Counted from the first letter of the stretch, positions 1 to 19,084 are shown. The stretch is 36,591 nucleotides of DNA from an uncultured bacterium (GCA_964543655.1 CAZIZE010000028.1:1-36591), one strand, 5' to 3'. Notes: a model not told the origin generated them from the letters alone. Numbers and translations are program-made.

Positions 1-1757
1 TCAACATAGTACTTGTTGTAGATGAGGTCGTAATGCAGGCTGTACTTCTCTGCCAGCTTGGCAGGAAGGTCCTTTGCATGAACCATGTAGATAAAGTAGG
101 CCAGGCAGATGCCGATGACTCCTACCATTACCGAACTGCCCATGAGTGTCCATTCAACTGCGTGTGAATACTCTGGAATTGGCACCGCATGGCTCACTAT
201 TGCCTGTGAGTGTTCGAAAACAGGCTCAAGGAATGTTTCAAGGATATTTGGTACATGGCCCAAATGCTGCCCTATGAGATGCGGTATTCCAAGCCAGCCG
301 CCTGTGAGTGATAGGAATGCCAGCACAACCAGCGGAAATGTCATTGATACAGGTGATTCATGAACATGGTGAGCCTGCTCCTCTGTACCCCTGAACTCTC
401 CATGGAAGGTCATGAAGATAAGCCTGAACATGTAGAATGCGGTAATACCAGCAGCTAAAGTGCCAACAAACCAGATTATCTTGCCCATTACCGGATAGTA
501 CGGGAATGTAAATGCCTTCCAGAGTATCTCATCTTTTGAGAAAAAGGCTGCAAATGGGGGCAGTCCTGCAATTGCCAGAGTGGCAATGAGCATGGTTGCA
601 TACGTAATGGGCATTTTCTTGGCAAGTCCACCCATGTTCCGCATGTCCTGATCACCGCTCATGGCATGGATCACTGAACCGGAACAGAGAAAGAGACAGG
701 CCTTGAAGAATGCGTGTGTCATGAGGTGAAAGATACCTGCCCAGTAAGCTGTAACACCCACACCTACAAACATGTAACCCAGCTGACTCACTGTGGAGTA
801 GGCAAGTACCTTTTTGATGTCATTCTGCAGGATACCTATTGTTGCTGCCATGAGTGCAGTGGCAACGGCAATGAGAGAGACAACAAGAAGTGCAGTGGGA
901 GCCAGAGTGTAAAGGATATTGGACCTGGCAACCATATACACACCTGCAGTAACCATTGTAGCAGCGTGAATCAATGCTGATACAGGAGTAGGACCTGCCA
1001 TAGCATCAGGTAACCAAACATATAATGGAATCTGAGCTGACTTTCCTGTGGCACCAACAAAAAGTAATATTCCTACTAAGGAAGCTGTTGCAACAGGAAT
1101 AAATTTAGCATGTGAAAGAACTGTATAAAAATTTAATGAATAAACATTTGTATATTTGCCAACTGCAAAGAAAAGTAGAAACATTCCAAGAACAAAACCA
1201 AAATCACCAACTCTGTTAAACACGAAAGCTTTTTTTCCTGCACTTGCAAATTCTTTATTTTCAAACCAGAAACCAATTAATAGGTATGAACAAACACCAA
1301 CTCCTTCCCATCCAAGAAACATTAGTACAAAATTATTTGCAAGTATTAGGTTAATCATTGAAAACATAAATAGATTTAAATATGTAAAATATCTGTAATA
1401 TCTACCCTCGTCATGATACATATATCCAATAGAGTATACATGAATTAAAAAGCCAACACCTGTAACAAATAAACTCATTGTAATTGATAAAGGATCCACA
1501 AGGTATCCTATATTCACTGAGAGGTTACCTGCTGTAAACCAGTTGTAAACAATTATTTCAAAATGCCTGTGATCAGGAGGCAATGTTAATAATTCCCTGA
1601 AAATCATCCAAACAACAAGGAATGCTAAGCCAACAGCAGAACATGCAATCCAATGAATAATACTTTTGTGTAATTTTTCCAATTTCCAGCCGAGAATCCC
1701 ATTAATGAGAACACCTATTAATGGAAAAAAAGGAACAAGCCATACATATTTAATCAT
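1..1757 (-). CDS. nuoL: NADH-quinone oxidoreductase subunit L (partial; 3' end runs off the window)
   Basis: Not in the ORF track; translated by hand from ATG at 1757 (RBS aaggag upstream): MIKYVWLVPFFPLIG...GWEGVGVCSYLLIGFW...NRVGDFG...GKSAQIPLYVWLPDAMAGPTPVSALIHAATMVTAG...QNDIKKVLAYSTVSQLGYM...THAFFKACLFLCSGSVIH...YNKYYV. Directly follows nuoK. Confidence 0.96.
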   Translation of the reverse strand, partial: MIKYVWLVPFFPLIGVLINGILGWKLEKLHKSIIHWIACSAVGLAFLVVWMIFRELLTLPPDHRHFEIIVYNWFTAGNLSVNIGYLVDPLSITMSLFVTGVGFLIHVYSIGYMYHDEGRYYRYFTYLNLFMFSMINLILANNFVLMFLGWEGVGVCSYLLIGFWFENKEFASAGKKAFVFNRVGDFGFVLGMFLLFFAVGKYTNVYSLNFYTVLSHAKFIPVATASLVGILLFVGATGKSAQIPLYVWLPDAMAGPTPVSALIHAATMVTAGVYMVARSNILYTLAPTALLVVSLIAVATALMAATIGILQNDIKKVLAYSTVSQLGYMFVGVGVTAYWAGIFHLMTHAFFKACLFLCSGSVIHAMSGDQDMRNMGGLAKKMPITYATMLIATLAIAGLPPFAAFFSKDEILWKAFTFPYYPVMGKIIWFVGTLAAGITAFYMFRLIFMTFHGEFRGTEEQAHHVHESPVSMTFPLVVLAFLSLTGGWLGIPHLIGQHLGHVPNILETFLEPVFEHSQAIVSHAVPIPEYSHAVEWTLMGSSVMVGVIGICLAYFIYMVHAKDLPAKLAEKYSLHYDLIYNKYYV

Positions 1758-2082: not shown

Positions 2083-2613
2083 TTAATTTTTTTTCTCTTT
2101 TTTTGCCAAAACAACAGCACCTGCTATTGCCGCAAGTAAAAGTATTGAAGTAACTTCAAATGGAAATACATATTTTGAGAATAACTGATAAGCTATATAT
2201 TTTACTGAACCAAATTTTTCAGGAATATGTTGCCAAGCAAGACCTTCCCAACCAGTTAAATGACCTGCGCCTATTTTTACTGCTTCTATAAAAAATATAA
2301 CTACAAATGCAATACCAACTATTTGAAACAATCTTAATTTATATTTACGTTTAATTTCATCTTCAATAGCAGTTAACATAATCATATATATAATAAGCAT
2401 CATAATTGCACCTGCGTATACAATAACCTGTATTGCAGCAATAAAATCAAAACCTAAAATTAGATATATCACAGCAGTGGAAAAAAGAGTTGAAACCATC
2501 CACAAAGCACTATGAACTGGGTTTTTAGCACAAACAACCATTATACCTGAACCCATTGCAAATACAACTGCCATGAAAAAAATTATAACAGGAATCATTA
2601 TCTCAGCTAACAT
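2083..2613 (-). CDS. nuoJ: NADH-quinone oxidoreductase subunit J
   Basis: KNPVHSALW, QVIVYAGAIM and YVFPFEVTSILLLAA motifs. Confidence 0.96.
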   Translation of the reverse strand: MLAEIMIPVIIFFMAVVFAMGSGIMVVCAKNPVHSALWMVSTLFSTAVIYLILGFDFIAAIQVIVYAGAIMMLIIYMIMLTAIEDEIKRKYKLRLFQIVGIAFVVIFFIEAVKIGAGHLTGWEGLAWQHIPEKFGSVKYIAYQLFSKYVFPFEVTSILLLAAIAGAVVLAKKEKKN

Positions 2614-2623: not shown

Positions 2624-3103
2624 TTATTTTCCTTGATAAATATATTTCTCTGGATTAAGTAAATCTTCTTTATTTAATTTAAATTCTTCCCTCGAGTATC
2701 CAACAAAATCATAAACATTGCTATATTCAATAGCATCTTTTGGACAAGCTTCAACACAGTATCCGCAGAAAATACATCTCAGTTCGTCAATTTCAAATTC
2801 TGCTGGATATCTTGTACCATCCTCCCTCTCTGCTGTAACTATTTTAATAGCTTTAGGAGGGCAAACAGCAGCACATAATCCACAACCAACACATTTATAT
2901 TCACCATTTTCATGTTTTAATAATCTGTGAATACCTCGCCATCTCTTTGATATTTCCCTTCTTTCTGTGGGATACTGTATTGTAACTGGCTCTGAACAAA
3001 ACATTTTAAATGTGTAACGTAACCCTTTAAGCAATGGTGTTATAATACCTGGCTTTCTTAAATTATCTCTAATATCTTCAATAGAATAATAACCCTTTTT
3101 CAT
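2624..3103 (-). CDS. nuoI: NADH-quinone oxidoreductase subunit I (2x[4Fe-4S])
   Basis: VTIQYP, RWRGIH, CVGCGLCAAVCP and CIFCGYCVEACP. Confidence 0.96.
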   Translation of the reverse strand: MKKGYYSIEDIRDNLRKPGIITPLLKGLRYTFKMFCSEPVTIQYPTERREISKRWRGIHRLLKHENGEYKCVGCGLCAAVCPPKAIKIVTAEREDGTRYPAEFEIDELRCIFCGYCVEACPKDAIEYSNVYDFVGYSREEFKLNKEDLLNPEKYIYQGK

Positions 3104-3120: not shown

Positions 3121-4110
3121 TTAATTTAGAAAAGATAAAACAATAGCTGTAACAACAAGGTTTGCCAATGCCAATGGCATTAAAACCTTCCAACCTAATT
3201 TCAAAATTTGATCTATTCTTAATCTTGGATAAGTAGCTCTCTCCCATACAAAGAAATACATTAGTGCTATTGATTTAATTAAAAACCAGATTGGCCCTGG
3301 TAAAAATGGACCATGCCACCCACCTAAAAATAGAGTTGTTATAATTGCACTAATTGTGAAAAGGTGACAATATTCAGCCATAAAAAACATTGAAAATTTC
3401 ATACTACTGTATTCAACATTGAAACCACATGCAAGCTCTGACTCAGTTTCTGGCATATCAAAAGGTGTCCTGTTAATTTCAGCAAGTGCACATATAATTG
3501 CTAAAACAAATGCAACTGGCTGTTTTACAATATTCCAAAGCCCTGTTTGAGCTTCAACAATACCAGAGAAACTTAAAGTACCACTAACAAGAACTACTGC
3601 AATTATAGTTAAAGCAAAGGGAAGCTCATAACTTATCATTAAAGCAGATGCCCTTAATGCACCAACAAGGCTGTATTTATTGTATGATGCATATCCACCT
3701 AAAACACATCCATATGAGCCTATAGCAGCAAGTGCAAAAACGTAAAGTACACTAATATCAATATCAGATAATACAAGTTTAACTTCTCTGCCAAAAATAT
3801 GAACTGTGCCTCCAAATGGAATTACTGCAATAACTGCAATTGCAGTGGCAAAACTTATCATTGGAGCCAATATAAAAACTATTTTATCTGCACGTTCTGG
3901 AATCACATCTTCTTTGAAAAAAGATTTTATTGCATCAGCTATTGGCTGCATTAAACCATGAAAACCAACTCTCATAGGACCATATCTTAACTGAAAATCT
4001 CCAAGCAGTTTCCTTTCAAACCATGTTGAATATGCAACAATTAACAATAACCCAACAAAAACAATTAATGTAAGTGCTATATTTATACCAATATCAATTA
4101 AAAAATCCAT
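3121..4110 (-). CDS. nuoH: NADH-quinone oxidoreductase subunit H
   Basis: ERKLLG..QLRYGP, QPIADAIK..KED, NRTPFDMPETESEL, FFMAEY and YPRLRIDQ motifs. Confidence 0.97.
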   Translation of the reverse strand: MDFLIDIGINIALTLIVFVGLLLIVAYSTWFERKLLGDFQLRYGPMRVGFHGLMQPIADAIKSFFKEDVIPERADKIVFILAPMISFATAIAVIAVIPFGGTVHIFGREVKLVLSDIDISVLYVFALAAIGSYGCVLGGYASYNKYSLVGALRASALMISYELPFALTIIAVVLVSGTLSFSGIVEAQTGLWNIVKQPVAFVLAIICALAEINRTPFDMPETESELACGFNVEYSSMKFSMFFMAEYCHLFTISAIITTLFLGGWHGPFLPGPIWFLIKSIALMYFFVWERATYPRLRIDQILKLGWKVLMPLALANLVVTAIVLSFLN

Positions 4111-4120
4111 TAAAAGCCTC

Positions 4121-6805
4121 CTATGCCTTCTTTATATTCACAGCACAAACTTTATATTCTGGTATTTTTGCAATTGGATCAAGAACATTGTTAGTAAGAA
4201 CATTAATAGCTGCTTCTGAAAAATGGAAACATCCAAAAACCACACCTTCAGCAACTCTTTCTGAAATTTTAGCATTTGTAGTAATTGAACCTCTTTTAGA
4301 AGAAACTACTATTTTATCTCCATCTGAAATTTTTAGTTTTTCTGCGTCTTTTGGATTAATTTCAACTGCTGGTGCAGGGCAGTAATAATTAAGAGCGGTT
4401 GATCTTCTGGTCATTGTAGCTGTATGAAACTGTTCATATCTTCTACCTGTTGTGAGAATAAAAGGATAATCTTTATCAGGTAACTCTTCAGGTGCTTTAT
4501 TTTCAACAGGTGTAAAGAGCCCTTTACCTCTAACAATATTTTCCACATGTAATATTTTTGTACCTGGGTGATCTTCTGATGGACATGGCCAACAAACACC
4601 ACCCTCTTTCTCAATTCTTTTATATGTAATACCTGCATACTGAGGTGTAACTTTTCTTATTTCTTCAAAAACCTCTTCTGCACTACTTGAAAATTCTGCT
4701 CCAAATCTCTTTGCAAGTTCAACAAGTATAGTAAGATCATCTTTAGCTTCACCAGGAGGATTAACTGCTTTTCTAACTCTCTGAACTCTTCTCTCTGTAT
4801 TGGTAAATGTACCATCTTTTTCAGCAAAACATGCAGCTGGTAACACAACATCAGCTTTCTTAGCTGTCTCAGTTAAGAATATGTCTTGAACAACTATAAA
4901 ATCTAATTTATCAAAAGCATGTTCAGCATGCTCAAGATAAGGCTCACTTACCATAGGGTTTTCACCCATAATATAAAGAGCTTTTAACTCACCCTTTTCC
5001 ACCATTTCAGGAATTTCTGTAAGTGGTTTGCCTCTGTTTATATTACAGGAGCAGTTCCAGATTTCTGAAAATTTATTACAATTATCCTCATTATCTACTG
5101 GTTGATAACCTGGATAAACATTTGGTAATCCACCCATATCACAGGCACCTTGAACATTGTTCTGACCTCTTAATGGATTTACCCCACCACCTTCTATGCC
5201 AATATTGCCACAGGTTAAAGCTAAGTTAACAAGTGATTTAACATTGTCAGTTCCAGAAGTGTGCTGAGTAATTCCCATTGCATAAAGAATGGAAGCTTTT
5301 TCAGCTTTACCATACATTAATGCAGCTTCTTTAAGTTTCTCTGCTGGAATACCTGTGATTTTCTCCACTTCCTCTGGGGTATACTTTTCAACTACCTTTT
5401 TAACTTCTTCAAAGCCTTCTGTTTTTTCATTAATATAATCTTCGTTGTGGAGATTATTGCTAATTATAACATTTAAAAATCCATTAATCCATGCTATATT
5501 ATTTCCAGGTTTTGGTTGGAGCCATACATCTGCATAATCAACAAGATCTATTTTCTTTGGATCAACAACTATCAGTTTAGAGCCATATTTCATTACAGCT
5601 TCACGAATATAGTTTGCTATAATTGGATGGCACTCTGATGTGTTTGAACCAGTAACAAGGATTACATCTGCGCCAATAGTACAATCTTTCATGGAATTTG
5701 TCATTGCACCGCTTCCAAGTGTAGTAGCCAGACCGGCTACAGTGGAGCTATGTCAGAGACGGGCACAATGATCAACATTGTTGGTACCTAAAACACTTCT
5801 AAAAAATTTCTGAAATGTATAATTCTCTTCATTTGTGGCTCTTGCTGAAGTTAGACCATATATTGCATCTGGTCCATGTTTTTCTTTAATCTCTTTTAAT
5901 TTCTCTGCAACATAATCAAGAGCTTTTTCCCATGTGGTTTCTTTAAATTCACCATTTTCTTTAATAAGAGGCTTTGTTAACCTATCCTCACTGTGGATAA
6001 ATTCCCAACCATATCTACCTTTTATACAAAGTGAGCCTTCATTAGGTCCAACTCCCTGCTCACTTGTAACTTTAATAACTTTACCATTAAAAACATTTAA
6101 ATCTAACTGACAACCGCATCCACAATAAGCGCATGTGGTTCTCACTCTCTCAATAAACCACCTTCTACCTTTAACTTCATTTAATTTATCAGTTAAAGTT
6201 CCTGTTGGGCAAACACCAAGGCATTCACCACAAGATTTACAAAGCTCTGGTTTAACAACTGTAACTTTTGCATCCCATCCTTTGCCCACAATATCAATAG
6301 CTTGATTACCTGTAATTTCTCTACATGCTGTAATACATCTCAGACACATTACACATCTGTCAGTCCACTGTCTGATAAAAGGAGTAGCATATTCAAGTAT
6401 CCCTTTATCAGGTAATTTTTCTTGAAATTCTACCTGCTCAATGTTAAATTCATAAACAAGATCCTGTAAAGTACATTCTCCTGCTTTATCACAAACAGGA
6501 CAGTCAAGAGGGTGATTTAAAAGAATCAATTTCAGCGCATCCCTACGCATTTCATACAGAGTATCTGAGTTAGTAATAACTTCAATTTCATCATCTACAG
6601 GAGTCATACATGATGGAACTGGATGCTCGTAACCTTTTACCTCAACTATACATAGCCTACATGAACCAATAGGAGTCAATCTATCATGGTAACAGAAAGT
6701 TGGAATACGAATACCAGCTGCCCTTGCAGCCTTTAAAATTGTGGTACCTCTTGGAACTTCAACTTCTTTACCATCAATTTTTAATTTAACAATATCTTCA
6801 GACAT
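4121..6805 (-). CDS. fdhA: Selenocysteine-containing formate dehydrogenase alpha subunit with NuoG-like N-terminal Fe-S domains (894 aa via UGA readthrough)
   Basis: ORFs 5753..6805 and 4121..5704 are in the same frame. Read-through gives [30 protein letters not shown], equivalent to FdhF CARV-U-HGPSVAGL. Contains a [2Fe-2S] motif, HPLDCPVCDKAGEC, two ferredoxin motifs, CAYCGCGC..CIKG, PLRGQNNVQGACDMG and a molybdopterin-dinucleotide-binding C-terminus. No Tat signal. Confidence 0.93.
5724..5755 (-). promoter_or_regulatory. Sec UGA codon (5755-5753) and bacterial SECIS hairpin
   Basis: mRNA reads UGA-CAUAGCUCCACU-GUAGCC-GGUCU-GGCUAC: a perfect 6-bp stem starting 12 nt after the UGA, with a GGUCU apex as in the E. 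coli fdhF SECIS (GCAGGUCUGC). Confidence 0.9.
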
Positions 6806-6836
6806 CTATCTTCCCCTAAAAATTATTTAAATTATA

Positions 6837-8777
6837 TTATATTCCAACCATTGCAACTCTGTAACATTTCAAGCATCTATCTGCCTCTGCTCTTGCTTCA
6901 ACAATTGAATAACCTTCTGTGTATTCAACAAAGCTCTTTTTCCTCTCTTCTGGTGACATATGATGTATCTTAACCCTCTCTCTGCCACCTATAATGCCAA
7001 TATCTTCAGAAGGATCAAATACTTTCACTTCAGAGAGAAAATCTTCCATCTTTTCTTCAATACTTCTCTCTACTGGAACTCCTCTTAAGTATTTATCTAT
7101 TTTATCAGCAGCTCTTCTTGCACCAGCACAGGCTCTAATAAGTGCATCTGGAGATGTAACAACATCACCTGCTGAAAATATTCCTTTTTTACTTGTCATG
7201 TAGTTGTTTATATCAACAACAAATGTCCCTTTCCTTGTAACCTCAATATCCTGAACTCCCTCAAGAACTCCAAGGTCTATTGCCTGTCCAATTGCAGGAA
7301 CTACTATATCACATTCATATAAAAATTCTGAACCTTTAATTGGTACTGGTCTTCTCCTCCCAGATTCATCTGGCTCACCAAGCTCCATTTTAATAAGTTC
7401 AACACCTACAACTTTGCCATCTTTAGCAACAATCTTGGTTGGATTTGTAAGATATAAAAACTTTACACCTTCCTCTTCTGCTTCTACTATCTCTTCTACA
7501 TTTGCTGGCATTTCATTTCTTGTCCTTCTATAAACAAGGGTAACTTCCTCTTTACCAATTCTTAAAGAGCACCTTACACAATCCATTGCAACATTTCCAC
7601 CACCTACAACCACAACCCTTTTGCCCTCAGGATATGGATCAAAACCATTATTTATATCCAGTAGATACTTTACTCCTGGTATATAACCTTTGTATCCTTC
7701 ATCTTCACCTTCTACTCTCATCTGTGAGCTTGTATGAGCACCAATTGCAATTAAAATAGCATCATATTCCTTTTCTAAATCTGGTAATTTAACATCTTTT
7801 CCTACATAGCAATTATATTGAATCTCTACTCCAAGAGATTGAATAGCTTCTGTTTCAACCTTGATAATGTTTCTTGGCAATCTATAGTCAGGAATACCTA
7901 CAGCAGCCATTCCACCTGTCTCAGATAATCTTTCAAAAATTTTTACTTTATACCCTTTTAGAGCAAGATGATAAGCTGCAGTTAGACCTGCCGGGCCTGC
8001 TCCAATAATGGCAACTTTTTTATTCTTAGCTTCTTCCTGAGGTTCAAACTTAGCAATCCCTTTCCTCTGCAACTCAAAATCAGCAACAAATCTTTTGAGA
8101 TGCTTTATTGATATTGGTCCATCAAGAAGCATTCTTCTACAATTTTCTTCACATGGTTTAACACAAACTCTACCTACAATTCCTGGTAACGGCAATCTTG
8201 TACGTATTAAGTCAAGAGAATCTTGAAATCTGCCTTCTCTAATTGCCTCAACATATTGAGGTATTGGTAGATGTATTGGGCAAGCATCAGTACAAGGTGC
8301 TGTTAAATGTGAAATATATTCTAATTCTGTTTTTTTAATTATCCCATTTAAAGCATTTTTAAAATCTTCTTCAAAATATTCAAGTGCATCAAGTATAGGT
8401 TTCGTAACAGTTTGACCTAAATTACACCTTGAACCTTCTTTAATTGAAATACTTAATTTTTTAATTATCTCAAGGTCTTTTTCTGTCCCCTCACCCTCAT
8501 AAATTTTATTCAGAATATCAGCCAAAACCTTGGTACCTATTCTACATAAAAAACATTTACCACATGAATGCTTTTGAGCTTCTTCCATATATGTTTTACA
8601 AAGTTCAACAACACTAATATCAGGCTCAGATATAATAAATCCATTCCAACCCATAAAAGCTTTGACTTTTTTCCCATTAAATTCATCAGGTAGATTAAGG
8701 TTTTCTACTTCAACAGGTTCTTTGCCTCTATTATCAATTACTTCTTCTGTCCAGCTGCTAAATAGCACTTTAGCCAT
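6837..8777 (-). CDS. sfrB: SfrB-like FAD/NAD(P)H oxidoreductase (NuoF-type 4Fe-4S domain + glutamate synthase beta/GltD-like module)
   Basis: N-terminus MAKVLFSSW..IDNRG..AFMGWNG resembles Geobacter SfrB as I recall it. Contains SCGKCFLCRIG..CNLG (NuoF N3-like), APCTDACP..GRVCVKPCEENCRR, GAGPAG (FAD), GGGNVAMD with VYRR (NADPH-type) and a C-terminal EADRCLKC. Confidence 0.85.
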   Translation of the reverse strand: MAKVLFSSWTEEVIDNRGKEPVEVENLNLPDEFNGKKVKAFMGWNGFIISEPDISVVELCKTYMEEAQKHSCGKCFLCRIGTKVLADILNKIYEGEGTEKDLEIIKKLSISIKEGSRCNLGQTVTKPILDALEYFEEDFKNALNGIIKKTELEYISHLTAPCTDACPIHLPIPQYVEAIREGRFQDSLDLIRTRLPLPGIVGRVCVKPCEENCRRMLLDGPISIKHLKRFVADFELQRKGIAKFEPQEEAKNKKVAIIGAGPAGLTAAYHLALKGYKVKIFERLSETGGMAAVGIPDYRLPRNIIKVETEAIQSLGVEIQYNCYVGKDVKLPDLEKEYDAILIAIGAHTSSQMRVEGEDEGYKGYIPGVKYLLDINNGFDPYPEGKRVVVVGGGNVAMDCVRCSLRIGKEEVTLVYRRTRNEMPANVEEIVEAEEEGVKFLYLTNPTKIVAKDGKVVGVELIKMELGEPDESGRRRPVPIKGSEFLYECDIVVPAIGQAIDLGVLEGVQDIEVTRKGTFVVDINNYMTSKKGIFSAGDVVTSPDALIRACAGARRAADKIDKYLRGVPVERSIEEKMEDFLSEVKVFDPSEDIGIIGGRERVKIHHMSPEERKKSFVEYTEGYSIVEARAEADRCLKCYRVAMVGI

Positions 8778-8804
8778 TTATAGTTCTCCTTAAGTTTATA
8801 TTGA

Positions 8805-9974
8805 TTATCTATCTATTTCTCCTAAAACTATATCTAATCCGCCTATTGCGGTAATTATGTCAGAAATCATGTAGCCTTCTATCATTGCTGGTAAAGCAGA
8901 TACATGTATATAGCATGGTGATTTTATTTTAAGCCTGTATGGCTTTTCACCACCATCACTGTAAATATAAAATCCTAACTCTCCCTTGGAACCTTCCACA
9001 CTTTGATACACTTCACCTTTAGGTGCTTTAAATCCTGATAAAACAAATTTAAATCTTCTAATTAAAGCATCAATATCAGTTCTTACTTTTTCCTGAGGTG
9101 GATTTAAATAAGGAATATCTGCCATTACTGGACCATCAGGCAGATTTTCTATTGCCTGCTTAATAATCTTAACTGATTGTCTCATCTCCTCTATTCTACA
9201 CATATATCTATCAAAAGCATCTCCTCTGGTACCAACAGGAACTTGAAAATCAAAATCCTCATAACTGCTATATGGAAAAGCTTTTCTAACATCATAGTTA
9301 ACACCTGAAGCTCTTCCTACTGCACCAGTAAGTCCTAAGTTAATTGCTTCTTCATAAGAAATAACTGCCAGGTTTTCATTTCTTTGACGCCAAATAATGT
9401 TATCAGTAAGCAATGTCTCATAACCATCTATTTTTGCAGGGAACATATCCACAAAATATTTTACTCTTTCAACAAATTTCTCTGTTACATCTTTTGCAAC
9501 ACCACCAATTCTCATATATGTAGGAGTTAATCTACCGCCACTTGCTTCCTCAATACACTCCATAATAACTTCTCTATCTGAAAATGCGTAAAAAACAACA
9601 GTCATTGCACCAAGGTCAAGAGCAGCACTACCAATCCAGAGATGGTGTCCCATTATCCTTGATAATTCTGATATAATAACTCTTAGATATTGCGCTCTTT
9701 TAGGAACTTCAATACCAAGGAGTTTCTCAACTGCAAGTACATAACCAAGATTGTTAAGAGATGCTGCTGTATAATCCAATCTATCAGTTAAAGGAATAGC
9801 CTGGTGAAAAGTAAAATCTTCAGCAATTTTTTCAATACCTCTATGCAATTGACCTATAATGGGGGTAGCTTTTATAACCTTTTCCCCTTCAAGTTCCAAA
9901 TCAATCCTTAAAACACCATGTGTAGATGGGTGGTGAGGACCAAAGTGTAATTTCCAGGTTCTTTCTGCTGCCAT
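8805..9974 (-). CDS. nuoD: NADH-quinone oxidoreductase subunit D
   Basis: GPHHPSTHGVLR, LHRGIEK, DRLDY, KGELG and terminal DIVLGEIDR; no NiFe CxxC motifs. Confidence 0.97.
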   Translation of the reverse strand: MAAERTWKLHFGPHHPSTHGVLRIDLELEGEKVIKATPIIGQLHRGIEKIAEDFTFHQAIPLTDRLDYTAASLNNLGYVLAVEKLLGIEVPKRAQYLRVIISELSRIMGHHLWIGSAALDLGAMTVVFYAFSDREVIMECIEEASGGRLTPTYMRIGGVAKDVTEKFVERVKYFVDMFPAKIDGYETLLTDNIIWRQRNENLAVISYEEAINLGLTGAVGRASGVNYDVRKAFPYSSYEDFDFQVPVGTRGDAFDRYMCRIEEMRQSVKIIKQAIENLPDGPVMADIPYLNPPQEKVRTDIDALIRRFKFVLSGFKAPKGEVYQSVEGSKGELGFYIYSDGGEKPYRLKIKSPCYIHVSALPAMIEGYMISDIITAIGGLDIVLGEIDR

Positions 9975-9989
9975 TTTTTCTTCCTTTAT

Positions 9990-10508
9990 TTAAAATTTTA
10001 TAACATTTTCTTTTATTGTTTCTGGATCCCAGGTTTGCTCAAAATCGTATCCTTTTGTGGGAAAATCTTTTCTTAAAGGATGATACTCATACCCTGGCCA
10101 CATAAGCAACCTTCTTAAATCTGGATGACCTTCAAACTCTATTCCAAACATATCATAAACTTCCCTTTCTGGGAAATTAGCTGATTTCCAGATATGATAA
10201 ACAGAAGGAACTTTTTCCCCTTCATCAACTTCTGTTTTCAAAATCATTCTATGTTCATTATCTATAGAAGTCAAAATATAAACAACATCAAATCGAGGCT
10301 TTCTATCATATGGTAAAAAGTCAACAGCAGTTACATCAACAAGCAGGTTAAAAAGCAATTTTTTCTCTTTATATAAAAACTCGCACAGGTTTAGCAACTT
10401 CTCTTTTTTTACTTTTACAACTGCTTCTCCTCTAAATTCTTCTGCTGAAATAATATCCTTTTTAAATTTCTTTTGAATTAATTTGATAATATCTTTTGCT
10501 TTAGCCAT
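9990..10508 (-). CDS. nuoC: NADH-quinone oxidoreductase subunit C
   Basis: [32 protein letters not shown] and HPLRKDFP. Confidence 0.97.
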
Positions 10509-10512
10509 TTCC

Positions 10513-11058
10513 CTACCCTGCTATTTTTATATTTCTTTCTTTGCAATATTTTTTAATATCTTCCTCTGTTATTATGTCAGGTCTTCCATGAATCCTTTCT
10601 TTACCAATCTTTTCCTGAATTTTCATAATAGCTGCAAGCAAACCCTCTGGTCGTGGAGGACAGCCTGGCAAGTAAACGTCAACTGGTATTACCTGATCAA
10701 CACCTTGCACCACTGCATAAGATTGAAAAATACCACCACATGATGCACATGCACCCATAGCTATAACCCATTTAGGGTCAGCTATTTGCTCATAAATTCT
10801 TTTAACCATTGGGGACATTTTCTTGGTAAGAGTACCGGCAACTATCATAAGATCTGATTGACGTGGAGATGGCCTGAAAACTTCTGAACCAAACCTCGCA
10901 ATATCGTAATGAGCAAGACTTGTTGCCATCATCTCAATAGCACAGCAAGCAAGACCAAATGTACATGGCCAAACTGAATTTCTTCTACCCCAGTTAACTA
11001 TTTTTTCCAATGTTGTGGTAACAATTGAACCTTCTGGTAATAAATATTCTATTCCCAT
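10513..11058 (-). CDS. nuoB: NADH-quinone oxidoreductase subunit B
   Basis: [22 protein letters not shown] and PGCPPRPE. Start moved to ATG 11058 (MGIEY), which overlaps the nuoA end and has aaggag upstream. Confidence 0.96.
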
Positions 11059-11426
11059 TCCAGTGCTCCTTTTTTCCATACATAGATAAAACCAACTAAT
11101 AAAATAAACATAAAAATAAACATTTCAACCAACCCAAAAGAACCTAACTGTTTAAAATAAACAGCCCAGGGATACATAAAAACACATTCAAGATCAAACA
11201 AAAGAAAAAGTAGTGCAAAAATATAGTATTTAACATCAAAAGAATACCAGGTAGGACCCTGAGTGGGTAATCCACTTTCATAAGGCTCATCTTTGTATGG
11301 GTTGTGTCTTCTTGGACCTAAAATAGCAGAAAAAAGCACCATAATAATCGCTACTACAGCACCAAGTATTAAAAAAAGCAAAATAGATGTGTAACTTCCA
11401 AGATATGAATTAATTGATGGAGTCAT
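11049..11426 (-). CDS. nuoA: NADH-quinone oxidoreductase subunit A
   Basis: [27 protein letters not shown] and WKKGALEW motifs; RBS gaggtg. Confidence 0.96.
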
Positions 11427-11470
11427 TTTTCACCTCTGCTTGTGAATTATTATTACAAATGAGCTGCATG

Positions 11471-11499
11471 CCTATAAATTATATTTTAACTGTTGTCAA
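11471..11499 (-). promoter_or_regulatory. Putative sigma70 promoter of the nuo operon
   Basis: Minus strand TTGACA (11499-11494), 17-nt spacer, TATAGG (11476-11471); the -10 element is imperfect. Confidence 0.45.
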
Positions 11500-11589
11500 G
11501 GAAAAAATAATTAAAAAATACAAAATAAATTATACAATTCAAATCAAAATATAAACGTAATTTAAAATAGTTATAAAACAAAAGATGTT

Positions 11590-12183
11590 TTATTTTCTTG
11601 ATGATTCTATTTTATTCATAAGAGCCATTAAGAATCCAAGAGTTATAAATGCACCTGGTGGCAAAATAAACACTATTATTGGAACATAGTTATATGCCAT
11701 AACATGTGCACCAAATAATGTTCCATTTCCAAGAATTTCTCTAATTGCTCCAAGAACTGTAAGAGATATGGTAAAGCCTATTCCTATACCAAGTCCATCA
11801 AAAAAAGATGCTATTAAATTGTTTTTTGAAGCAAAAGCTTCAGCTCTTCCAAGAATAATACAGTTCACAACAATAAGAGGAATAAATAATCCCAATTCTT
11901 TATGCAATTCATAAAAATATCCTGCCATAATCAAATCTATAATAGTAACAAATGATGCTATAATAACAATAAAAGCTGGTATCCTGACTTTTTTAGGTAT
12001 AAAATTTCTAACTAATGAGATAACTATATTTGAGCATACAAGAACAAAAGTTGTGGCTAACCCCATACCAATGCCATTAATAGCAGCTGTTGTAACAGCA
12101 AGGGTGGGACACATTCCAAGAACAAGTTTAAAAGTAGGATTTAAATCCCACAACCCTTTGGTAAACTCTCTTTTGTATTCCAT
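11590..12183 (-). CDS. rnfE: Rnf electron transport complex subunit E
   Basis: NP..LGMCPTLAVTT, VRIP, LFIPLIVVNCIILGRAEAFA and LPPGAF. Confidence 0.96.
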   Translation of the reverse strand: MEYKREFTKGLWDLNPTFKLVLGMCPTLAVTTAAINGIGMGLATTFVLVCSNIVISLVRNFIPKKVRIPAFIVIIASFVTIIDLIMAGYFYELHKELGLFIPLIVVNCIILGRAEAFASKNNLIASFFDGLGIGIGFTISLTVLGAIREILGNGTLFGAHVMAYNYVPIIVFILPPGAFITLGFLMALMNKIESSRK

Positions 12184-12210
12184 ATATATCCTCCTGAAAT
12201 AACAAACTGA

Positions 12211-12786
12211 TTATTTTTTTAAAATTTTATTTTTATTTTTAGCATAAAATTTCAATCCATTGTAAACAGCTTTGGTAACAGCCCTTGGAGATATTGTGGC
12301 ACCAGAAATTTGGTCAATATCACCACCATCTTTTTTCACTTTCCACACAGTATTTTTCAAATTTCTATTTTTAAACTGATCTTTAAACCACTTTTCAGTA
12401 ATTTTAGCACCAAGGCCTGGGGTCTCTGACATTGATAAAATTTCTATCCCATTAATTGAATCATTTTTTGTTTTTATACCAAGCATAATTTCTATTGTAC
12501 CACCATAACCTTCATTAGAATAAACCTTAAAAGCAACTCCGCAGATTTTGCCATTTTTATTTTTTCCAATAAATATATCTTTTTTATTAATTGTAATTTT
12601 ATCTTTAAGTGGGTCATTTACACTACAGGGTGGAAGCACTGATTTAATAGCCCTTATCATTTCTAACCTTTTCTGCTTTGCTATAGGCTCTTTTGTAATA
12701 TTATATATTAGAGCAAGAGAAAATGCTGAAATAACACAAATCAAAGTTAGCACCTTAACTAATTTCAATGTATTGTCTTGCTTCAT
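12211..12786 (-). CDS. rnfG: Rnf complex subunit G (covalent FMN)
   Basis: N-terminal TM segment, GYGG, ETPGLG and DQISGATIS flavinylation motif. Confidence 0.95.
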   Translation of the reverse strand: MKQDNTLKLVKVLTLICVISAFSLALIYNITKEPIAKQKRLEMIRAIKSVLPPCSVNDPLKDKITINKKDIFIGKNKNGKICGVAFKVYSNEGYGGTIEIMLGIKTKNDSINGIEILSMSETPGLGAKITEKWFKDQFKNRNLKNTVWKVKKDGGDIDQISGATISPRAVTKAVYNGLKFYAKNKNKILKK

Positions 12787-12805
12787 ACGAAAAACTCCTT
12801 AAAAT

Positions 12806-13798
12806 TTAGTTGGTTGGCTTAAAACCAAACTTTTTAGGTCTAACATATTTATCAATTAGAGGTGTTACAGAGTTCATCAATAATATTGCAAATGAAACAC
12901 CTTCTGGATATCCACCCCACAACCTTATTACAGCAGTTAATAAACCACAACCTATACCAAAGATTATCATACCTTTCTCTGTAATAGGTGATGTAACCAT
13001 ATCTGTAGCCATAAAAAAAGCACCAAGCATTAAGCCTCCTGATAAAATATGATAAATTGGATTTATATAAACCTGTGGATTAATTGCCCACATAATTCCT
13101 GTAACAAGAAAAACAGTTGCTATAAAAGATACCGGTATATGCCACCTTACATAACCTCTGTAAATCAAATATAAACCACCTGCTATTAATGCAAGTGCTG
13201 AAACTTCACCAATACAACCACCTGTATTACCAATAAGTAAATCAAAAATAGAGTAAGCTTTTGCGTGTATAATTTTACCATGCAGCATAACCTCTTCTTT
13301 AACAAGACCAAGAGGTGTTGCCTCTGTAACAATATCTGGATGCCAAAAACTCCCTGCAAGAACAGGTTTCATCCATTTGGTCATTTGAACTGGAAATGAA
13401 ATAAGTAGAAACACCCTTGCTACAAGAGCTGGATTAAAAAGATTATGTCCAAGCCCACCAAAAACCTGCTTGGCTATTACAATTGCAACAAAACTACCAA
13501 CCAATGCAACCCACCAGGGTGAAGCAGCAGGTAAATTAAGACCGAGCAACAATCCTGTAACAAGTGCGCTACCATCAAAAACAGAAATTTTTTGCTTAAA
13601 CAACTTCTGCCAGCCATATTCAATTGCCATAGAAAACACACAACATAAAACAACTACTTTAATTGCAGGAAAACCAAAAACATAAAAGCCTACAAGTGTT
13701 GCCGGCAGTAGTGCAATGATAACATTGTACATTATTATTGGAATACTTTCTCCACAATGAACATGAGGTGAAGAAGTTAATAATAGCTTTTTCTCCAT
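12806..13798 (-). CDS. rnfD: Rnf complex subunit D
   Basis: Start moved to ATG 13798 (MEKKLLLTSSPH; RBS aaggag). KQVFGGLGHNLFNPA, VTEATPL (FMN Thr), GCIGEVS, FMATD and YPEGVSFAILLMN. Confidence 0.96.
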   Translation of the reverse strand: MEKKLLLTSSPHVHCGESIPIIMYNVIIALLPATLVGFYVFGFPAIKVVVLCCVFSMAIEYGWQKLFKQKISVFDGSALVTGLLLGLNLPAASPWWVALVGSFVAIVIAKQVFGGLGHNLFNPALVARVFLLISFPVQMTKWMKPVLAGSFWHPDIVTEATPLGLVKEEVMLHGKIIHAKAYSIFDLLIGNTGGCIGEVSALALIAGGLYLIYRGYVRWHIPVSFIATVFLVTGIMWAINPQVYINPIYHILSGGLMLGAFFMATDMVTSPITEKGMIIFGIGCGLLTAVIRLWGGYPEGVSFAILLMNSVTPLIDKYVRPKKFGFKPTN

Positions 13799-13823
13799 TC
13801 CAACTCCTTTTATTTTTGGAAAT

Positions 13824-15158: not shown

Positions 15159-15177
15159 GCAAAGCTCTCCTGTTTTT

Positions 15178-16149: not shown

Positions 16150-16170
16150 AATTCCCCCGTATAATTAAGG

Positions 16171-16752
16171 TTATATTTTCACTAATCCAGAAAAACCCAT
16201 AAAAGCTAATGATAAGATTCCTGCTGTTATTAATGAAATTGCTGTGCCTTTAAAAACTTTTGGAATATCAGCTAATTCCATTTTCTCCCTTAAACCTGCA
16301 AAAATAGTAAGTGCAACACCAAAACCAACAGCTGAGCCTATACTAAAAACAAGCATTTCTATAAAATTGTAATTTTTCTGAATATTAAGCACAGCAGCAC
16401 CAAGAACAGCACAATTTGTTGTAATAAGAGGTAAAAAAATTCCAAGAGCTTGATATAAAGCTGGACTTGTTTTCTGCACAACCATTTCCACAAACTGAAC
16501 AAGTGCTGCAATTACAAGGATAAAAACTATTGTTTGAAGATATTGTAAATGAAGAGGATTTAAAACAGCATACTGAAGTATCCAGGTAATAACAGATGCC
16601 ACTGTCATTACAAAAATAACAGCCATGCTCATTCCAACCGCTGTTTCTACTTTTTTCGAAACACCAAGAAATGGACAAATACCAAGAAATCTTGAAAGGA
16701 TAAAGTTATTAACAAAAACTGCACTTATAAAGATAAGAATTAATTCAGCCAT
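16171..16752 (-). CDS. rnfA: Rnf complex subunit A
   Basis: Start moved to ATG 16752 (MAELILI; RBS ggaggag). [18 protein letters not shown] and [12 protein letters not shown]. Confidence 0.96.
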
Positions 16753-16780
16753 ACTCCTCCCCTTTTCAAAAAACTTTCCG

Positions 16781-19081: not shown

Positions 19082-19084
19082 AAT

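What the first reader, a model, noticed from the sequence alone, without database searches (positions are those of the whole stretch)
4121..11426. Complex I operon whose NuoEFG input module is replaced by a Sec-formate dehydrogenase and an SfrB-like NADPH flavoprotein
Seen: order is nuoA-B-C-D-sfrB-fdhA(Sec)-nuoH-I-J-K-L with gaps of 31 nt or less, so the two genes sit exactly in the nuoEFG slot. FdhA has the NuoG-type Fe-S relay and an intact FDH active-site set (Lys in CIKG, Sec-His, Arg in PLRGQNN) with no Tat signal. NuoD and NuoB are quinone-type, with no NiFe ligands. Established: NuoG is homologous to FDH alpha but catalytically dead; Geobacter SfrAB is an NADPH oxidoreductase made of FDH-like and GltD-like subunits. 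Inference: a proton-pumping complex with two cytoplasmic entry points, formate and NADPH. It could act as a formate:quinone or NADPH:quinone oxidoreductase, or run in reverse for pmf-driven CO2/NADP+ reduction.
Basis: partly seen in the sequence, partly recalled or inferred. Interest (0 to 1): 0.82.

Follow-up and report, generated by a model that had tools for sequence, protein, structure and literature searches.

The report
Complex I operon carrying formate dehydrogenase
A vent bacterium's respiratory complex I operon carries a selenium formate dehydrogenase and an NADPH-type flavoprotein where the usual NADH-oxidising subunits sit, a layout shared by many anaerobes that could link formate and NADPH directly to the membrane proton pump.

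Summary
On the minus strand lie nuoA-B-C-D, a 646-aa NuoF-tail/GltD-like flavoprotein, an 894-aa selenocysteine FdhA with a NuoG-type N-terminus, then nuoH-I-J-K-L. All gaps are 31 nt or less. NuoD and NuoB are quinone-type (65).

The UGA is followed by a covarying SECIS-like hairpin. selA, selB, tRNA-Sec, fdhD and moaA are in the genome.

The layout is not a one-off:
- 5 of 5 genomes of the same order have it.
- 28 of 80 related loci have it.
- At least 47 of 301 evenly drawn genomes of the phylum holding L019's genome (that record's NCBI label: Thermodesulfobacteriota) have nuoD directly before the flavoprotein gene (91-96).

In many of these the second gene has lost its catalytic residues. 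It keeps the Fe-S ligands, as NuoG does. In others a Sec-fdhA sits before nuoA or after nuoN. The homologous proteins are detected with NuoC and NuoD in a published proteome.

Best reading (0.55): a complex I variant whose input module is a Moorella-type NADP-FDH, linking NADP(H) and formate/CO2 to menaquinone. Physical assembly and activity are untested. Ten full-text searches found no description.

The parts
11049..11426 (-). nuoA
   Evidence: PF00507, E 1.7e-37
10513..11079 (-). nuoB, with the N2-cluster ligands CCxxE, C111 and C140-P
   Evidence: PF01058; NCBIfam NuoB subfamily 247 bits against cut-off 116; Cys pattern
9990..10508 (-). nuoC
   Evidence: PF00329, E 3.4e-46
8805..9974 (-). 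nuoD, quinone-type, without NiFe ligands
   Evidence: PF00346; TIGR01962 528 bits against cut-off 459; FGPHHPSTHGVLRI and DRLDY present, no RxCGxC or DPCxxC
6837..8777 (-). 646-aa Fe-S flavoprotein (P0002). It combines a NuoF C-terminal [4Fe-4S] domain, a two-cluster Fer4_20 domain, a GltD/NfnB-like FAD + NAD(P)H domain and a C-terminal CxxC tail. This is the FdhB/SfrB-like subunit.
   Evidence: PF10589 at residues 59-141, PF14691 at 159-238, PF07992 at 253-549. PDB matches: residues 153-638 to 9bov_A, NfnA 9n5u_A and 8oh5_C; residues 28-140 to HoxF/HydB/NuoF C-termini. Invariant Cys 72, 75, 78, 118, 162, 166, 205, 209, 213, 635 and 638 in 12 homologues. JGI name 'formate dehydrogenase beta subunit'.
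4121..6805 (-). fdhA, 894 aa, selenocysteine formate dehydrogenase alpha subunit with a NuoG-type N-terminal Fe-S domain
   Evidence: Pfam Fer2_4, NADH-G_4Fe-4S_3, Fer4_Nqo3, Molybdop_Fe4S4, Molybdopterin and Molydop_binding. TIGR01591 878 bits against cut-off 666. Full-length match to R. capsulatus FdsA 6tg9_A. K262, U351, H352 and R546 present.
5753..5755 (-). in-frame TGA read as selenocysteine (codon 351 of fdhA)
   Evidence: A TGA stands at the same column in 25 homologous genes of the loci.
5724..5740 (-). SECIS-like hairpin GUAGCC-GGUCU-GGCUAC, starting 12 nt after the UGA
   Evidence: Fold. All 6 stem pairs are kept in 24 of 26 Sec genes, with covariation at pair 3 (AU 3, GC 17, CG 4) and pair 6 (CG 23, AU 3). 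They are kept in 0 of 5 Cys genes.
3121..4110 (-). nuoH
   Evidence: PF00146, E 3.3e-119
2624..3103 (-). nuoI, with two 4Fe-4S motifs
   Evidence: Fer4 families; NuoI equivalog NF004538 141.8 bits against cut-off 135
2083..2613 (-). nuoJ
   Evidence: PF00499
1769..2071 (-). nuoK
   Evidence: PF00420
3..1757 (-). nuoL, cut by the contig start. The part encoded by window 1 to about 920 is probably a foreign (chimeric) assembly end.
   Evidence: PF00361, PF00662 and PF01010; GC jump; depth 1-2.6 against about 11, and a contig that leaves the window at about 923; nuoL-M-N on contig C61 and in the same-genus genome
11590..16809 (-). Context: six rnf genes on the same strand, 163 nt upstream of nuoA
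   Evidence: Pfam Rnf-Nqr, FeS/Fer4, RnfC_N + Complex1_51K, NQR2_RnfD_RnfE and FMN_bind. The same neighbourhood occurs in G001 and G003.

Best explanation
The operon encodes a 13-subunit complex I variant: NuoABCD, HIJKLMN, and two subunits in place of NuoEFG. These two are a Moorella-type NADP-dependent formate dehydrogenase pair.

Proposed layout:
- FdhA takes the place of NuoG. Its N-terminal 2Fe-2S and 4Fe-4S clusters form the wire to NuoI, NuoB and menaquinone. It also keeps a live Mo/W-bisPGD selenocysteine site.
- The flavoprotein takes the place of NuoF. Its N-terminal N3-type cluster domain docks on FdhA as NuoF docks on NuoG. Its GltD-like FAD domain exchanges hydride with NADP(H).

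The enzyme would then be a reversible, proton-coupled junction between three couples: NADP+/NADPH, CO2/formate and menaquinone/menaquinol.
- Forward, NADPH and formate reduce menaquinone while protons are pumped.
- In reverse, the proton-motive force drives menaquinol electrons uphill to make NADPH and formate for the Wood-Ljungdahl pathway.

Shown: the gene content, the motifs, the Sec machinery, the conservation, and that this FdhA is the only protein over the FDH cut-off in an assembly that also holds acsB, FTHFS and menaquinone genes.
Inferred: the physical assembly, NADPH rather than NADH as the nucleotide, and the direction of flow.
For: 1. Slot and spacing: the two genes lie between nuoD and nuoH with gaps of 27, 31 and 10 nt and no terminator-like site in those gaps.

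2. No other N-module for this complex. nuoA-K occur once in the genome. The only NuoE/NuoF homologues sit in two separate trios, each with its own short NuoG-like protein, and one trio lies beside 2-oxoacid:ferredoxin oxidoreductase genes.

3. Conservation:
- 5 of 5 genomes of the same order have the arrangement. The same-genus genome has rnf-nuoABCD-flavoprotein-fdhA-nuoHIJKLMN on one contig.
- 28 of 80 loci found with the flavoprotein have nuoD directly upstream.
- I examined the flanks of 80 of the 81 best matches in 301 genomes drawn evenly from the phylum of G042. In 47 genomes nuoD lies directly upstream.

4. The link survives changes of gene order. Sec-fdhA lies before nuoA with the flavoprotein still in the slot in L014, L032, L206, L208 and L209. 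It lies after nuoN in L047. Both genes lie after nuoN in L210 and L211.

5. NuoG-like behaviour. None of the 17 degenerate slot proteins keeps the Sec/Cys-His-Arg set. Yet 14 of the 17 keep all 20 Fe-S ligand columns. The exceptions are L007 (C161D), L025 (H98G) and L023, whose extract lacks the N-terminus.

6. The flavoproteins of 21 nuo-embedded loci fall in one clade of 26 rows with SH-aLRT support of 99.

7. Sec decoding is real: a covarying hairpin, plus selA, selB and tRNA-Sec. selD is in 5 of 5 relatives. fdhD and moaA are present.

8. Physiological frame of the own genome: acsB, FTHFS, two MqnA/D-family genes, a NiFe hydrogenase and a Psr/Phs-like quinol-linked reductase are present. 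No dsrA was found. The other three molybdopterin proteins lack the FDH site.

9. Expression of a homologous cluster. In supplementary file 1 of PMC13101534 (passages seen), the ORM2a proteins OS130_12455 (NuoC), 12460 (NuoD), 12465 (FAD-dependent oxidoreductase, K15022) and 12470 (molybdopterin-dependent oxidoreductase, K05299) all carry spectral counts. Their sequences match L024.
Against:
- The same two-gene pair also stands alone, away from any nuo gene, in many genomes. In 21 of the 80 phylum-sample loci the flavoprotein is followed by fdhA with no nuoD upstream. Close free-standing relatives exist, such as L003. The pair can therefore work as a soluble enzyme.
- A soluble pair with a dead FDH-like subunit is known from Geobacter SfrAB (recalled). 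Loss of the active site alone therefore does not prove a structural role.
- Five flavoproteins inside the nuo clade are not beside nuo genes.
- NADPH specificity rests on family resemblance only.
- The N5-type His/Cys3 site that would hand electrons to NuoI is also present in soluble FDHs, so it does not discriminate.
- The proteome evidence comes from a relative with a degenerate subunit, not from this organism.
Confidence: 0.55

Rival explanations
1. The two genes encode an ordinary soluble NADP-dependent formate dehydrogenase (FdhAB) for the Wood-Ljungdahl pathway. [quoted passage not shown]
For: Free-standing flavoprotein + fdhA pairs are common: 21 of 80 phylum-sample loci, and loci such as L027, L049 and L066. 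The window FdhA clusters with such free FdhAs. Published work files the ORM2a homologues under the Wood-Ljungdahl module. The genome has acsB and FTHFS. Eleven-subunit complexes without an N-module are widespread (PMC11238625 and PMC3144371, passages seen).
Against: The genes sit exactly in the N-module slot in distant lineages, and they stay inside nuo operons when the order changes. Slot proteins lose catalysis but keep the Fe-S wire. A pathway enzyme has no evident reason to be kept inside, rather than beside, a membrane-complex operon in at least 47 of 301 genomes.
Confidence: 0.2
2. The complex is assembled as proposed, but NAD(P)H is the only donor or acceptor that communicates with the quinone. 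The FDH site serves only NADPH-linked CO2 reduction on the same scaffold, or is on its way to being lost. The enzyme would then be an NAD(P)H:menaquinone oxidoreductase with a passenger activity.
For: Where the site could be read, 24 of 38 nuo-embedded slot proteins in the phylum sample have lost the FDH site, so the complex works without it. NCBIfam scores of 9 such proteins run from near-FDH to NuoG-best.
Against: The window and its 5 order-level relatives keep Sec. The window also keeps the SECIS-like hairpin, His, Arg and Lys. Operons whose slot has no G-like gene mostly carry a full-length Sec-fdhA next to nuoA (6 such loci: L014, L032 and L047; L206, L208 and L209). L207 showed none in the 20 kb fetched. 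All Fe-S columns that would connect the Mo/W site with the shared wire are intact.
Confidence: 0.15
3. The module is an electron-bifurcating or confurcating device. For example, NADPH oxidation at the GltD-like FAD would send one electron uphill to CO2 reduction and one downhill to menaquinone.
For: The nearest solved relatives of the flavoprotein's residues 153-638 are subunits of bifurcating transhydrogenases (9n5u NfnA, 8oh5) and NfnB.
Against: No test was made. In the Bfu-type enzymes bifurcation is assigned to the NuoF-like FMN subunit (abstract of PMC12018979 in the listing), which is missing here. No ferredoxin-binding subunit is in the operon.
Confidence: 0.05

Closest known systems
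Canonical bacterial complex I (NuoA-N) with the NuoEFG N-module
   Same: The eleven core genes, their order, the quinone-type NuoD/NuoB and the canonical-type NuoI are the same. The inserted genes lie where nuoEFG lie. FdhA shares NuoG's N-terminal cluster domains, and the flavoprotein shares NuoF's C-terminal N3 domain.
   Different: The operon has no NuoE and no NuoF FMN/NADH domain (Complex1_51K). The G position holds a catalytically complete Sec-FDH that scores under the NuoG cut-off. The nucleotide site is a GltD-type FAD domain.
NADP-dependent formate dehydrogenase FdhAB of Moorella thermoacetica (EC 1.17.1.10; KO K05299/K15022)
   Same: A two-subunit design: a Sec FDH alpha with a NuoG-like N-terminus plus a GltD-like beta. 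JGI names the family 'formate dehydrogenase beta subunit'. The ORM2a homologues are filed under K15022 and K05299. The genome has the Wood-Ljungdahl marker genes.
   Different: The Moorella enzyme is soluble and not encoded in a nuo operon (recalled). No Moorella sequence was compared here.
Geobacter sulfurreducens SfrAB (soluble NADPH oxidoreductase)
   Same: This resembles the degenerate relatives found in the slot.
   Different: SfrAB is soluble and not in a nuo operon (recalled). The window's alpha subunit is a live Sec-FDH. No Geobacter sequence was compared here.
Formate hydrogenlyase (E. coli Hyc/Hyf + FdhF)
   Same: A formate dehydrogenase feeds a complex I-related membrane module (PMC7050243, abstract seen in the listing).
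   Different: There the NuoD homologue is a NiFe hydrogenase and the acceptor is H+. Here the NiFe ligands are absent and the quinone-site motifs are present. FdhF lacks the NuoG-like N-terminus.
Complex I relatives with alternative input modules (Fpo with FpoF; cyanobacterial NDH-1; Campylobacter Nuo)
   Same: The principle is the same: an 11-subunit core with a lineage-specific electron-input module (PMC3144371 abstract and passages; the rest is recalled).
   Different: The donors there are F420H2, ferredoxin or flavodoxin. None carries an FDH or a GltD-like NADPH module.
Soluble NAD-dependent FDH FdsABG (R. capsulatus, C. necator)
   Same: FdhA aligns over its full length with FdsA 6tg9_A. 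The cluster domains are the same.
   Different: FdsB/G are NuoF/NuoE homologues with FMN. Here the partner is a GltD-like FAD protein and the genes are inside nuo.

Membership tests
Respiratory complex I core (Nuo, quinone-reducing) | Genes for NuoA, B, C, D, H, I, J, K, L, M and N | tested here: met
   A-D and H-L are in the window. M and N are on contig C61, 96% and 94% identical to those that follow nuoL on one contig in the same-genus genome.
Respiratory complex I core (Nuo, quinone-reducing) | NuoD without NiFe ligands and with the quinone-site His/Tyr motifs; NuoB with the four N2 cysteines | tested here: met
   NuoD equivalog over its cut-off.
Canonical 14-subunit complex I | NuoE and an FMN/NADH-binding NuoF encoded with the complex; NuoG model match | tested here: not met
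   The operon has no PF01257 or PF01512 domain. The PF01512 genes elsewhere are RnfC and two separate trios. FdhA scores 426 against the NuoG cut-off of 470.
Metal-dependent formate dehydrogenase alpha (TIGR01591) | Model score over the cut-off; Sec/Cys-His pair; active-site Arg; Lys next to the Mo-domain 4Fe-4S cluster; both pterin-binding domains | tested here: met
   878 bits against 666; U351-H352, R546 and K262; PF00384 and PF01568.
Metal-dependent formate dehydrogenase alpha (TIGR01591) | Formate oxidation or CO2 reduction activity; Mo or W content | not testable with these tools
   Only supporting genes were found: fdhD and moaA.
Bacterial selenoprotein gene | In-frame UGA with a downstream SECIS hairpin; selA, selB, selC and selD in the genome | tested here: met
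   Hairpin with covariation; selA, selB, tRNA-Sec. selD was not found in this 94% complete assembly but is present in 5 of 5 relatives.
Moorella-type NADP-dependent FDH (FdhAB) | Alpha with a NuoG-like N-terminus plus a GltD-like beta subunit with a NuoF-type cluster domain | tested here: met
   Domain architectures; source names and KO labels. Direct comparison with the Moorella proteins was not made.
Moorella-type NADP-dependent FDH (FdhAB) | NADPH as cofactor; soluble heterotetramer | not testable with these tools
   Nucleotide preference is inferred from the relatives. The oligomeric state is unknown.
Geobacter SfrAB | Homology to SfrA/SfrB, and an alpha subunit without FDH catalysis | not tested
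   No Geobacter sequence was at hand. The window's alpha subunit keeps the catalytic set, so it would differ on the second point.
Formate hydrogenlyase / group 4 NiFe hydrogenase | NiFe-binding cysteines in the NuoD homologue | tested here: not met
   No RxCGxC or DPCxxC; only three Cys, none in those motifs.

The most novel reading that the evidence does not exclude
This is a proton-coupled menaquinone:NADP+/CO2 oxidoreductase. It is the sole formate dehydrogenase of a Wood-Ljungdahl organism and is wired into complex I, so that the membrane potential can drive CO2 reduction to formate, and NADP+ reduction, from menaquinol, or be built from their oxidation.

The same family occurs in about one in six sampled genomes of the phylum holding L019's genome, among them MAGs labelled Syntrophales and Smithellaceae and the benzene degrader ORM2a. 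There it would be a candidate for the reverse-electron-transport device that lifts quinol-level electrons to NADPH or formate in syntrophic oxidation.

The slot proteins, which grade from full Sec-FDH to NuoG-like, would be living intermediates of the route by which NuoG arose from a formate dehydrogenase.
Probability: 0.35. Interest if true: 0.9.

Novelty: new variant of a known kind. Interest (0 to 1): 0.78.

Why it matters
Complex I is known with a few alternative electron-input modules. I found no description of one built from a live formate dehydrogenase and an NADPH flavoprotein.

If the module is attached, several consequences follow:
- Formate and NADPH, the two reductants of the Wood-Ljungdahl carbonyl and methyl branches, would be coupled directly to the proton-motive force. 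This would change the energy budgets drawn for acetogenic, sulfur-reducing and syntrophic anaerobes.
- It would offer a concrete candidate for quinol-to-formate/NADPH reverse electron transport.
- It would explain why genome papers report a 'missing nuoG' or missing N-module. None of the 9 degenerate slot proteins I scanned reaches the NuoG cut-off, and 8 of the 9 also miss the FDH cut-off.

The graded loss of the FDH site within one operon position is also a natural experiment on the origin of NuoG.

Tried and rejected
No binding test exists.
- The search of earlier findings was not open.
- Sequencing runs: no RNA holder is listed. Only DNA contigs were laid, so nothing can be said on transcription.
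- I suspected that the 13-locus nuo cluster of Desulfurivibrio dismutans (PMC12142623) hides the two genes. This is rejected: its supplementary table lists NuoD (RS03530) directly followed by NuoH (RS03535).
- Geobacter and Deferribacter leads: PMC13186404 mentions sfrB beside a molybdopterin gene but not in the nuo cluster.
- Pereira et al. 2011 (recalled as a possible source) is not held, so I cannot say what it states.
- In one search my extraction of L033 and L048 picked a wrong frame. For these two I rely.
- L017 was dropped from alignment A3 because its stretch held a stop.
- Promoter-like hits were fewer than in shuffles (mean 70.5) and are not used. No terminator-like hit lies in the three gaps of interest.
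- The whole-stretch fold z-score of the SECIS region is only -1.0. The support comes from covariation, not from energy.
- The trees are unrooted quick searches. They do not settle how many times the active site was lost, or whether NuoEFG was displaced.
- Taxon names for the window's lineage could not be obtained (one search gave none). The nearest named record is labelled Bacteroidales by its submitters, which I do not rely on.


Full report
**What is in the window**

On the minus strand the ORF list gives an unbroken series: nuoA, nuoB, nuoC, nuoD, a 646-aa gene, two collinear frames of 350 and 527 aa, then nuoH, nuoI, nuoJ, nuoK and nuoL. The two frames are separated by one TGA and 16 codons. 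Read with TGA as selenocysteine they form one 894-aa protein.

Pfam assigns every Nuo subunit. It gives the 894-aa protein the full set of an NAD(P)-linked formate dehydrogenase alpha subunit: Fer2_4, the NuoG His/Cys3 cluster domain, Fer4_Nqo3, Molybdop_Fe4S4, Molybdopterin and Molydop_binding. It gives the 646-aa protein the NuoF C-terminal cluster domain, the two-cluster Fer4_20 domain and a pyridine-nucleotide/FAD domain.

The gaps are 4 to 31 nt, and nuoA/nuoB overlap. No terminator-like match lies in the three gaps around the inserted genes.

NCBIfam places FdhA over the Fdh-alpha equivalog cut-off (878 against 666) and under the NuoG cut-off (426 against 470). NuoD, NuoB and NuoI pass their models.

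NuoD has the complex I motifs FGPHHPSTHGVLRI and DRLDY and no NiFe cysteine motifs. NuoB has CCxxE, C111 and C140-P. FdhA has K262, U351-H352 and R546 and no twin-arginine leader.

**The two inserted proteins**

FdhA aligns over its whole length with the alpha subunit of the soluble R. capsulatus FDH (6tg9_A). Over its catalytic part it aligns with HDCR FdhF and E. coli FdhH. Its N-terminal 400 residues also match NuoG/75-kDa subunits of solved complex I structures.

The flavoprotein's residues 153-638 match the NADPH-binding GltD-like parts of 9bov_A, NfnA of NfnABC (9n5u_A) and 8oh5_C. More shortly they match NfnB, GltD and dihydropyrimidine dehydrogenase. Residues 28-140 match the C-terminal cluster domain of HoxF, HydB and NuoF.

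Twelve homologues keep Cys 72, 75, 78 and 118 (the N3-type site), Cys 162, 166, 205, 209 and 213, and a C-terminal C635-x2-C638.

The family is very large. All 8000 scored candidates passed E 1e-20, and where a source names it the name is 'formate dehydrogenase beta subunit'. From memory that is the KEGG label of the beta subunit of the NADP-dependent FDH of Moorella thermoacetica. A paper's table indeed files the homologue under K15022, with K05299 for the alpha subunit. NADPH rather than NADH is thus an inference from relatives, not a test.

**Selenocysteine**

Twelve nucleotides after the UGA lies the hairpin GUAGCC-GGUCU-GGCUAC. In 26 homologous genes that have TGA at this column (the window included), 24 keep all six stem pairs. 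Pair 3 changes on both sides (AU 3, GC 17, CG 4), as does pair 6 (CG 23, AU 3). The loop is GGUCU in 21 of the 26. None of the five genes with a Cys codon keeps all six pairs. From memory, its place and loop resemble the E. coli fdhF SECIS.

The genome holds selA, selB, tRNA-Sec, fdhD and moaA. selD was not found in this 94% complete assembly. It is present in 5 of 5 genomes of the same order, each with one in-frame TGA.

**The rest of the genome**

The window is the start of contig C28 of a 2.26-Mb, 102-contig assembly with 29.7% GC.

nuoA to nuoK occur once. nuoM and nuoN are on contig C61, behind a second, frameshifted nuoL fragment. In the same-genus genome G001 the whole series lies on one contig: rnf, nuoABCD, flavoprotein, fdhA, nuoHIJKLMN. 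Its nuoM and nuoN are 96% and 94% identical to the C61 genes.

The first ~920 bases of the window look chimeric:
- GC is 47-49% against 28-35% afterwards.
- Depth is 1-2.6 against about 11 in the best holder.
- A 3279-nt contig of that run leaves the window at about 923.

In the same run one contig spans 4764-12000 and another spans 3376-4753. The junctions nuoD/flavoprotein/fdhA and fdhA/nuoH are therefore each bridged.

NuoE/NuoF homologues exist only in two other places. Each comes with its own 232-234-aa NuoG-N-terminus-like protein, and one trio directly follows 2-oxoacid:ferredoxin oxidoreductase genes.

The assembly has acsB, FTHFS, two MqnA/D-family genes and one NiFe hydrogenase. No dsrA was found. 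It also has a Tat-led, Sec-containing Psr/Phs-like reductase with NrfD-type and Fe-S subunits, and a type II DMSO-reductase-family enzyme.

Of the four molybdopterin proteins, only the window's FdhA passes the FDH model and has the Sec-His/Arg set. Within what is assembled, it is the only formate dehydrogenase of an organism with the Wood-Ljungdahl marker genes and menaquinone.

**Relatives**

A scan of one genome per species with an alignment of twelve flavoproteins gave 597 confirmed places, of which the best 80 were kept. In 28 of the 80, nuoD lies directly upstream. They fall into these groups:
- 7 have a Sec-FdhA in the slot: L001, L002, L004, L005, L006, L033, L048.
- 17 have a slot protein without the Sec/Cys-His-Arg set.
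- 3 have nuoH directly after the flavoprotein. The Sec-fdhA then sits just before nuoA (L014, L032) or after nuoN (L047).
- 1 is cut (L034).

Of the 17 degenerate proteins, 14 keep all 20 Fe-S ligand columns. The exceptions are L007 (C161D), L025 (H98G) and L023 (N-terminus not in the extract).

I scanned nine of them against NCBIfam. None reaches the NuoG cut-off, and eight of the nine also miss the FDH cut-off. The scores run from 660 and 657 on the FDH model (cut-off 666), through 474 (FDH) and 462 (NuoG), to proteins whose best match is NuoG at 276-387. The ninth, L025, still passes the FDH model at 793; it keeps Cys-His but has His for the Arg.

In a quick tree of 70 flavoproteins, 21 nuo-embedded ones and 5 others form one clade with SH-aLRT support of 99. 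Six further nuo-embedded ones lie in four other places. Four of the five others are orphans in unrelated neighbourhoods. The fifth (L003) is a free pair whose FdhA has Ser at the Sec column.

**How common it is**

All five genomes of the window's order have the orthologue (79-91% identity) in the same arrangement, partly cut in two of them. Beyond the order the tool's next kin are only 'same domain'.

I drew 301 genomes evenly from the phylum of G042. G042 is the genome of L019, a record labelled Syntrophales, with NCBI phylum Thermodesulfobacteriota. Of these, 160 had a match at E 1e-120 or better.

I fetched 1400 nt on each side of 80 of the 81 best matches, which come from 79 genomes. One match was skipped because its 1083-aa frame marks a fused form. 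The result:
- 47 have nuoD directly upstream. Of these, 39 continue with the fdhA/G-like gene, 5 with nuoH, and 3 are cut.
- 3 follow an antiporter-type subunit.
- 3 have no room upstream.
- 27 have other neighbours, and 21 of those are flavoprotein + fdhA pairs.

Among the nuoD-adjacent loci the site could be read in 38: 12 have Sec-His, 2 have Cys-His and 24 have lost it.

I extended four of the five nuoD-flavoprotein-nuoH loci. Three have a full-length Sec-fdhA immediately before nuoA, and one showed none in the 20 kb fetched. Two of the three 'antiporter' cases read nuoH...N-flavoprotein-fdhA(Sec).

These sets overlap with the 80 loci and are kin, so the counts describe spread, not independent events.

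**Expression in a relative**

L024 is the chromosome of ORM2a, a benzene-degrading member of an enrichment culture. [quoted passage not shown]

Its proteome tables list NuoC, NuoD, the 'FAD-dependent oxidoreductase' (K15022) and the 'molybdopterin-dependent oxidoreductase' (K05299), at consecutive locus tags 12455-12470, with 14, 26, 32 and 59 in the spectra column. The printed sequences carry the same site string as L024's slot protein.

The degenerate form of the module is therefore made together with Nuo subunits. This says nothing direct about the window's organism.

**How it most likely works**

In complex I the path runs from FMN to N3 in NuoF, then N1b, N4 and N5 in NuoG, then N6a/b in NuoI and N2 in NuoB, and finally to quinone (established knowledge).

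Here every ligand of the corresponding FdhA clusters is present. So are the extra 4Fe-4S clusters that lead to the Mo/W site in FDHs. The flavoprotein supplies an N3-type cluster followed by two clusters and FAD.

The simplest reading is a three-way junction of NADP(H), formate/CO2 and menaquinone on a proton-pumping core. The direction is open:
- Forward flow would conserve energy from formate (about -430 mV) and NADPH to menaquinone (about -75 mV); these potentials are textbook values.
- Reverse flow would let an organism that feeds electrons in at the quinone level make NADPH and formate for the Wood-Ljungdahl pathway.

The rnf genes 163 nt upstream, also present in two relatives, would supply the ferredoxin/NAD link.

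I put 0.55 on this assembled, reversible enzyme. I put 0.2 on a merely co-transcribed soluble FdhAB, 0.15 on an assembled NAD(P)H:quinone enzyme whose FDH site does not talk to the quinone, and 0.05 on a bifurcating scheme.

The main weakness is that free-standing pairs are common. In addition, a soluble pair with a dead alpha subunit is known (Geobacter SfrAB, recalled), and no binding test could be run.

**Comparison with the literature**

Ten full-text searches found no description of a formate dehydrogenase or a GltD-like flavoprotein inside a nuo operon. I also saw passages of nine papers: PMC11238625, PMC4758237, PMC13186404, PMC4911364, PMC12142623, PMC5736913, PMC13101534 and PMC3144371, plus the supplements of two of them.

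Surveys of complex I gene clusters speak of 11-, 12-, 13- and 14-subunit types and of a missing N-module. The one paper that has such a cluster in hand reports a missing nuoG and files the two genes under carbon fixation.

The library lacks most subscription journals, and one candidate review (Pereira et al. 2011) was not held. 'Not found' is therefore not 'not in print'.

I rate it a new variant of a known kind: complex I with an alternative input module. It is widespread and apparently overlooked.

Noticed in passing
window 1-920 (3' part of nuoL): Abrupt GC jump (47-49% against 28-35%), depth 1-2.6 against about 11 in the best-holding run, and a 3279-nt contig of that run that diverges at about 923. 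The contig end is probably chimeric. The true continuation (nuoL-M-N) is on contig C61, whose own nuoL fragment is frameshifted near C61:13215.
   Followed up: yes
window 11590-16809, minus strand: Six rnf genes (A/E, B, C, D, G, E/A types) lie directly upstream of nuoA on the same strand, with a 163-nt gap. The same neighbourhood is seen in G001 (rnfA/E, C, D, G, E/A) and in G003 (rnfD, G, E/A), but no rnf hit lies in the 2.6 kb upstream of nuoA in G002.
   Followed up: partly
window 18707-36366: MSHA-like type IV pilus / type II secretion cluster: MshE-type ATPase, T2SSF, a 1498-aa DUF6701 protein, several N-methyl pseudopilins and a secretin. GC falls to 22-28% here.
   Followed up: partly
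G000 contigs C87 (L097:7482-10629) and C96 (L099:4152-7178): Two NuoE-like + NuoF-like + short (232-234 aa) NuoG-N-terminus-like trios. The C96 trio directly follows 2-oxoacid:ferredoxin oxidoreductase alpha/beta genes. They may be Bfu-type modules. C87 also holds a NuoD-like gene with antiporter-like subunits (a group 4 hydrogenase-like cluster).
   Followed up: partly
G000:C15 (L100:4824-8841): A Tat-led Psr/Phs-like molybdoenzyme with one in-frame TGA, next to NrfD-type and Fe-S subunit genes. This would be a second selenoprotein and a likely quinol-linked terminal reductase. SelD of all five relatives also carries an in-frame TGA.
   Followed up: partly
L007-L026, L069, L074 (slot gene after the flavoprotein gene): The proteins in the NuoG position grade from near-complete FDH to NuoG-like. 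Eight of nine scanned fall under both NCBIfam cut-offs, which may be why such operons are annotated as lacking nuoG.
   Followed up: partly
L008:4357-7221; L023:1824-3905; L025:548-2656: In some operons with a degenerate slot protein, a shorter Sec-FdhA (about 680-700 aa, FdhF-like) lies upstream of nuoA. In L008 an in-frame stop separates a 264-aa frame from it (split gene or second recoded stop).
   Followed up: no
L210:7757-19615; L211:4-9411: A third gene order: nuoH...nuoN followed by the flavoprotein gene and Sec-fdhA at the end of the operon.
   Followed up: partly
L010, L011, L015, L040 (flavoprotein gene at about 10001-11950): Flavoproteins of the nuo-associated clade that stand alone among unrelated genes (two-component regulators, purine and histidine genes, MtrH-like, CobW). 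Their partner is unknown.
   Followed up: partly
G000:C33 (L102:754-4712): A 675-aa FDH-like molybdoenzyme without the Sec/Cys-His and Arg set (387 bits, under the FDH cut-off), followed by an aldehyde:ferredoxin oxidoreductase-like gene. Function unknown.
   Followed up: no
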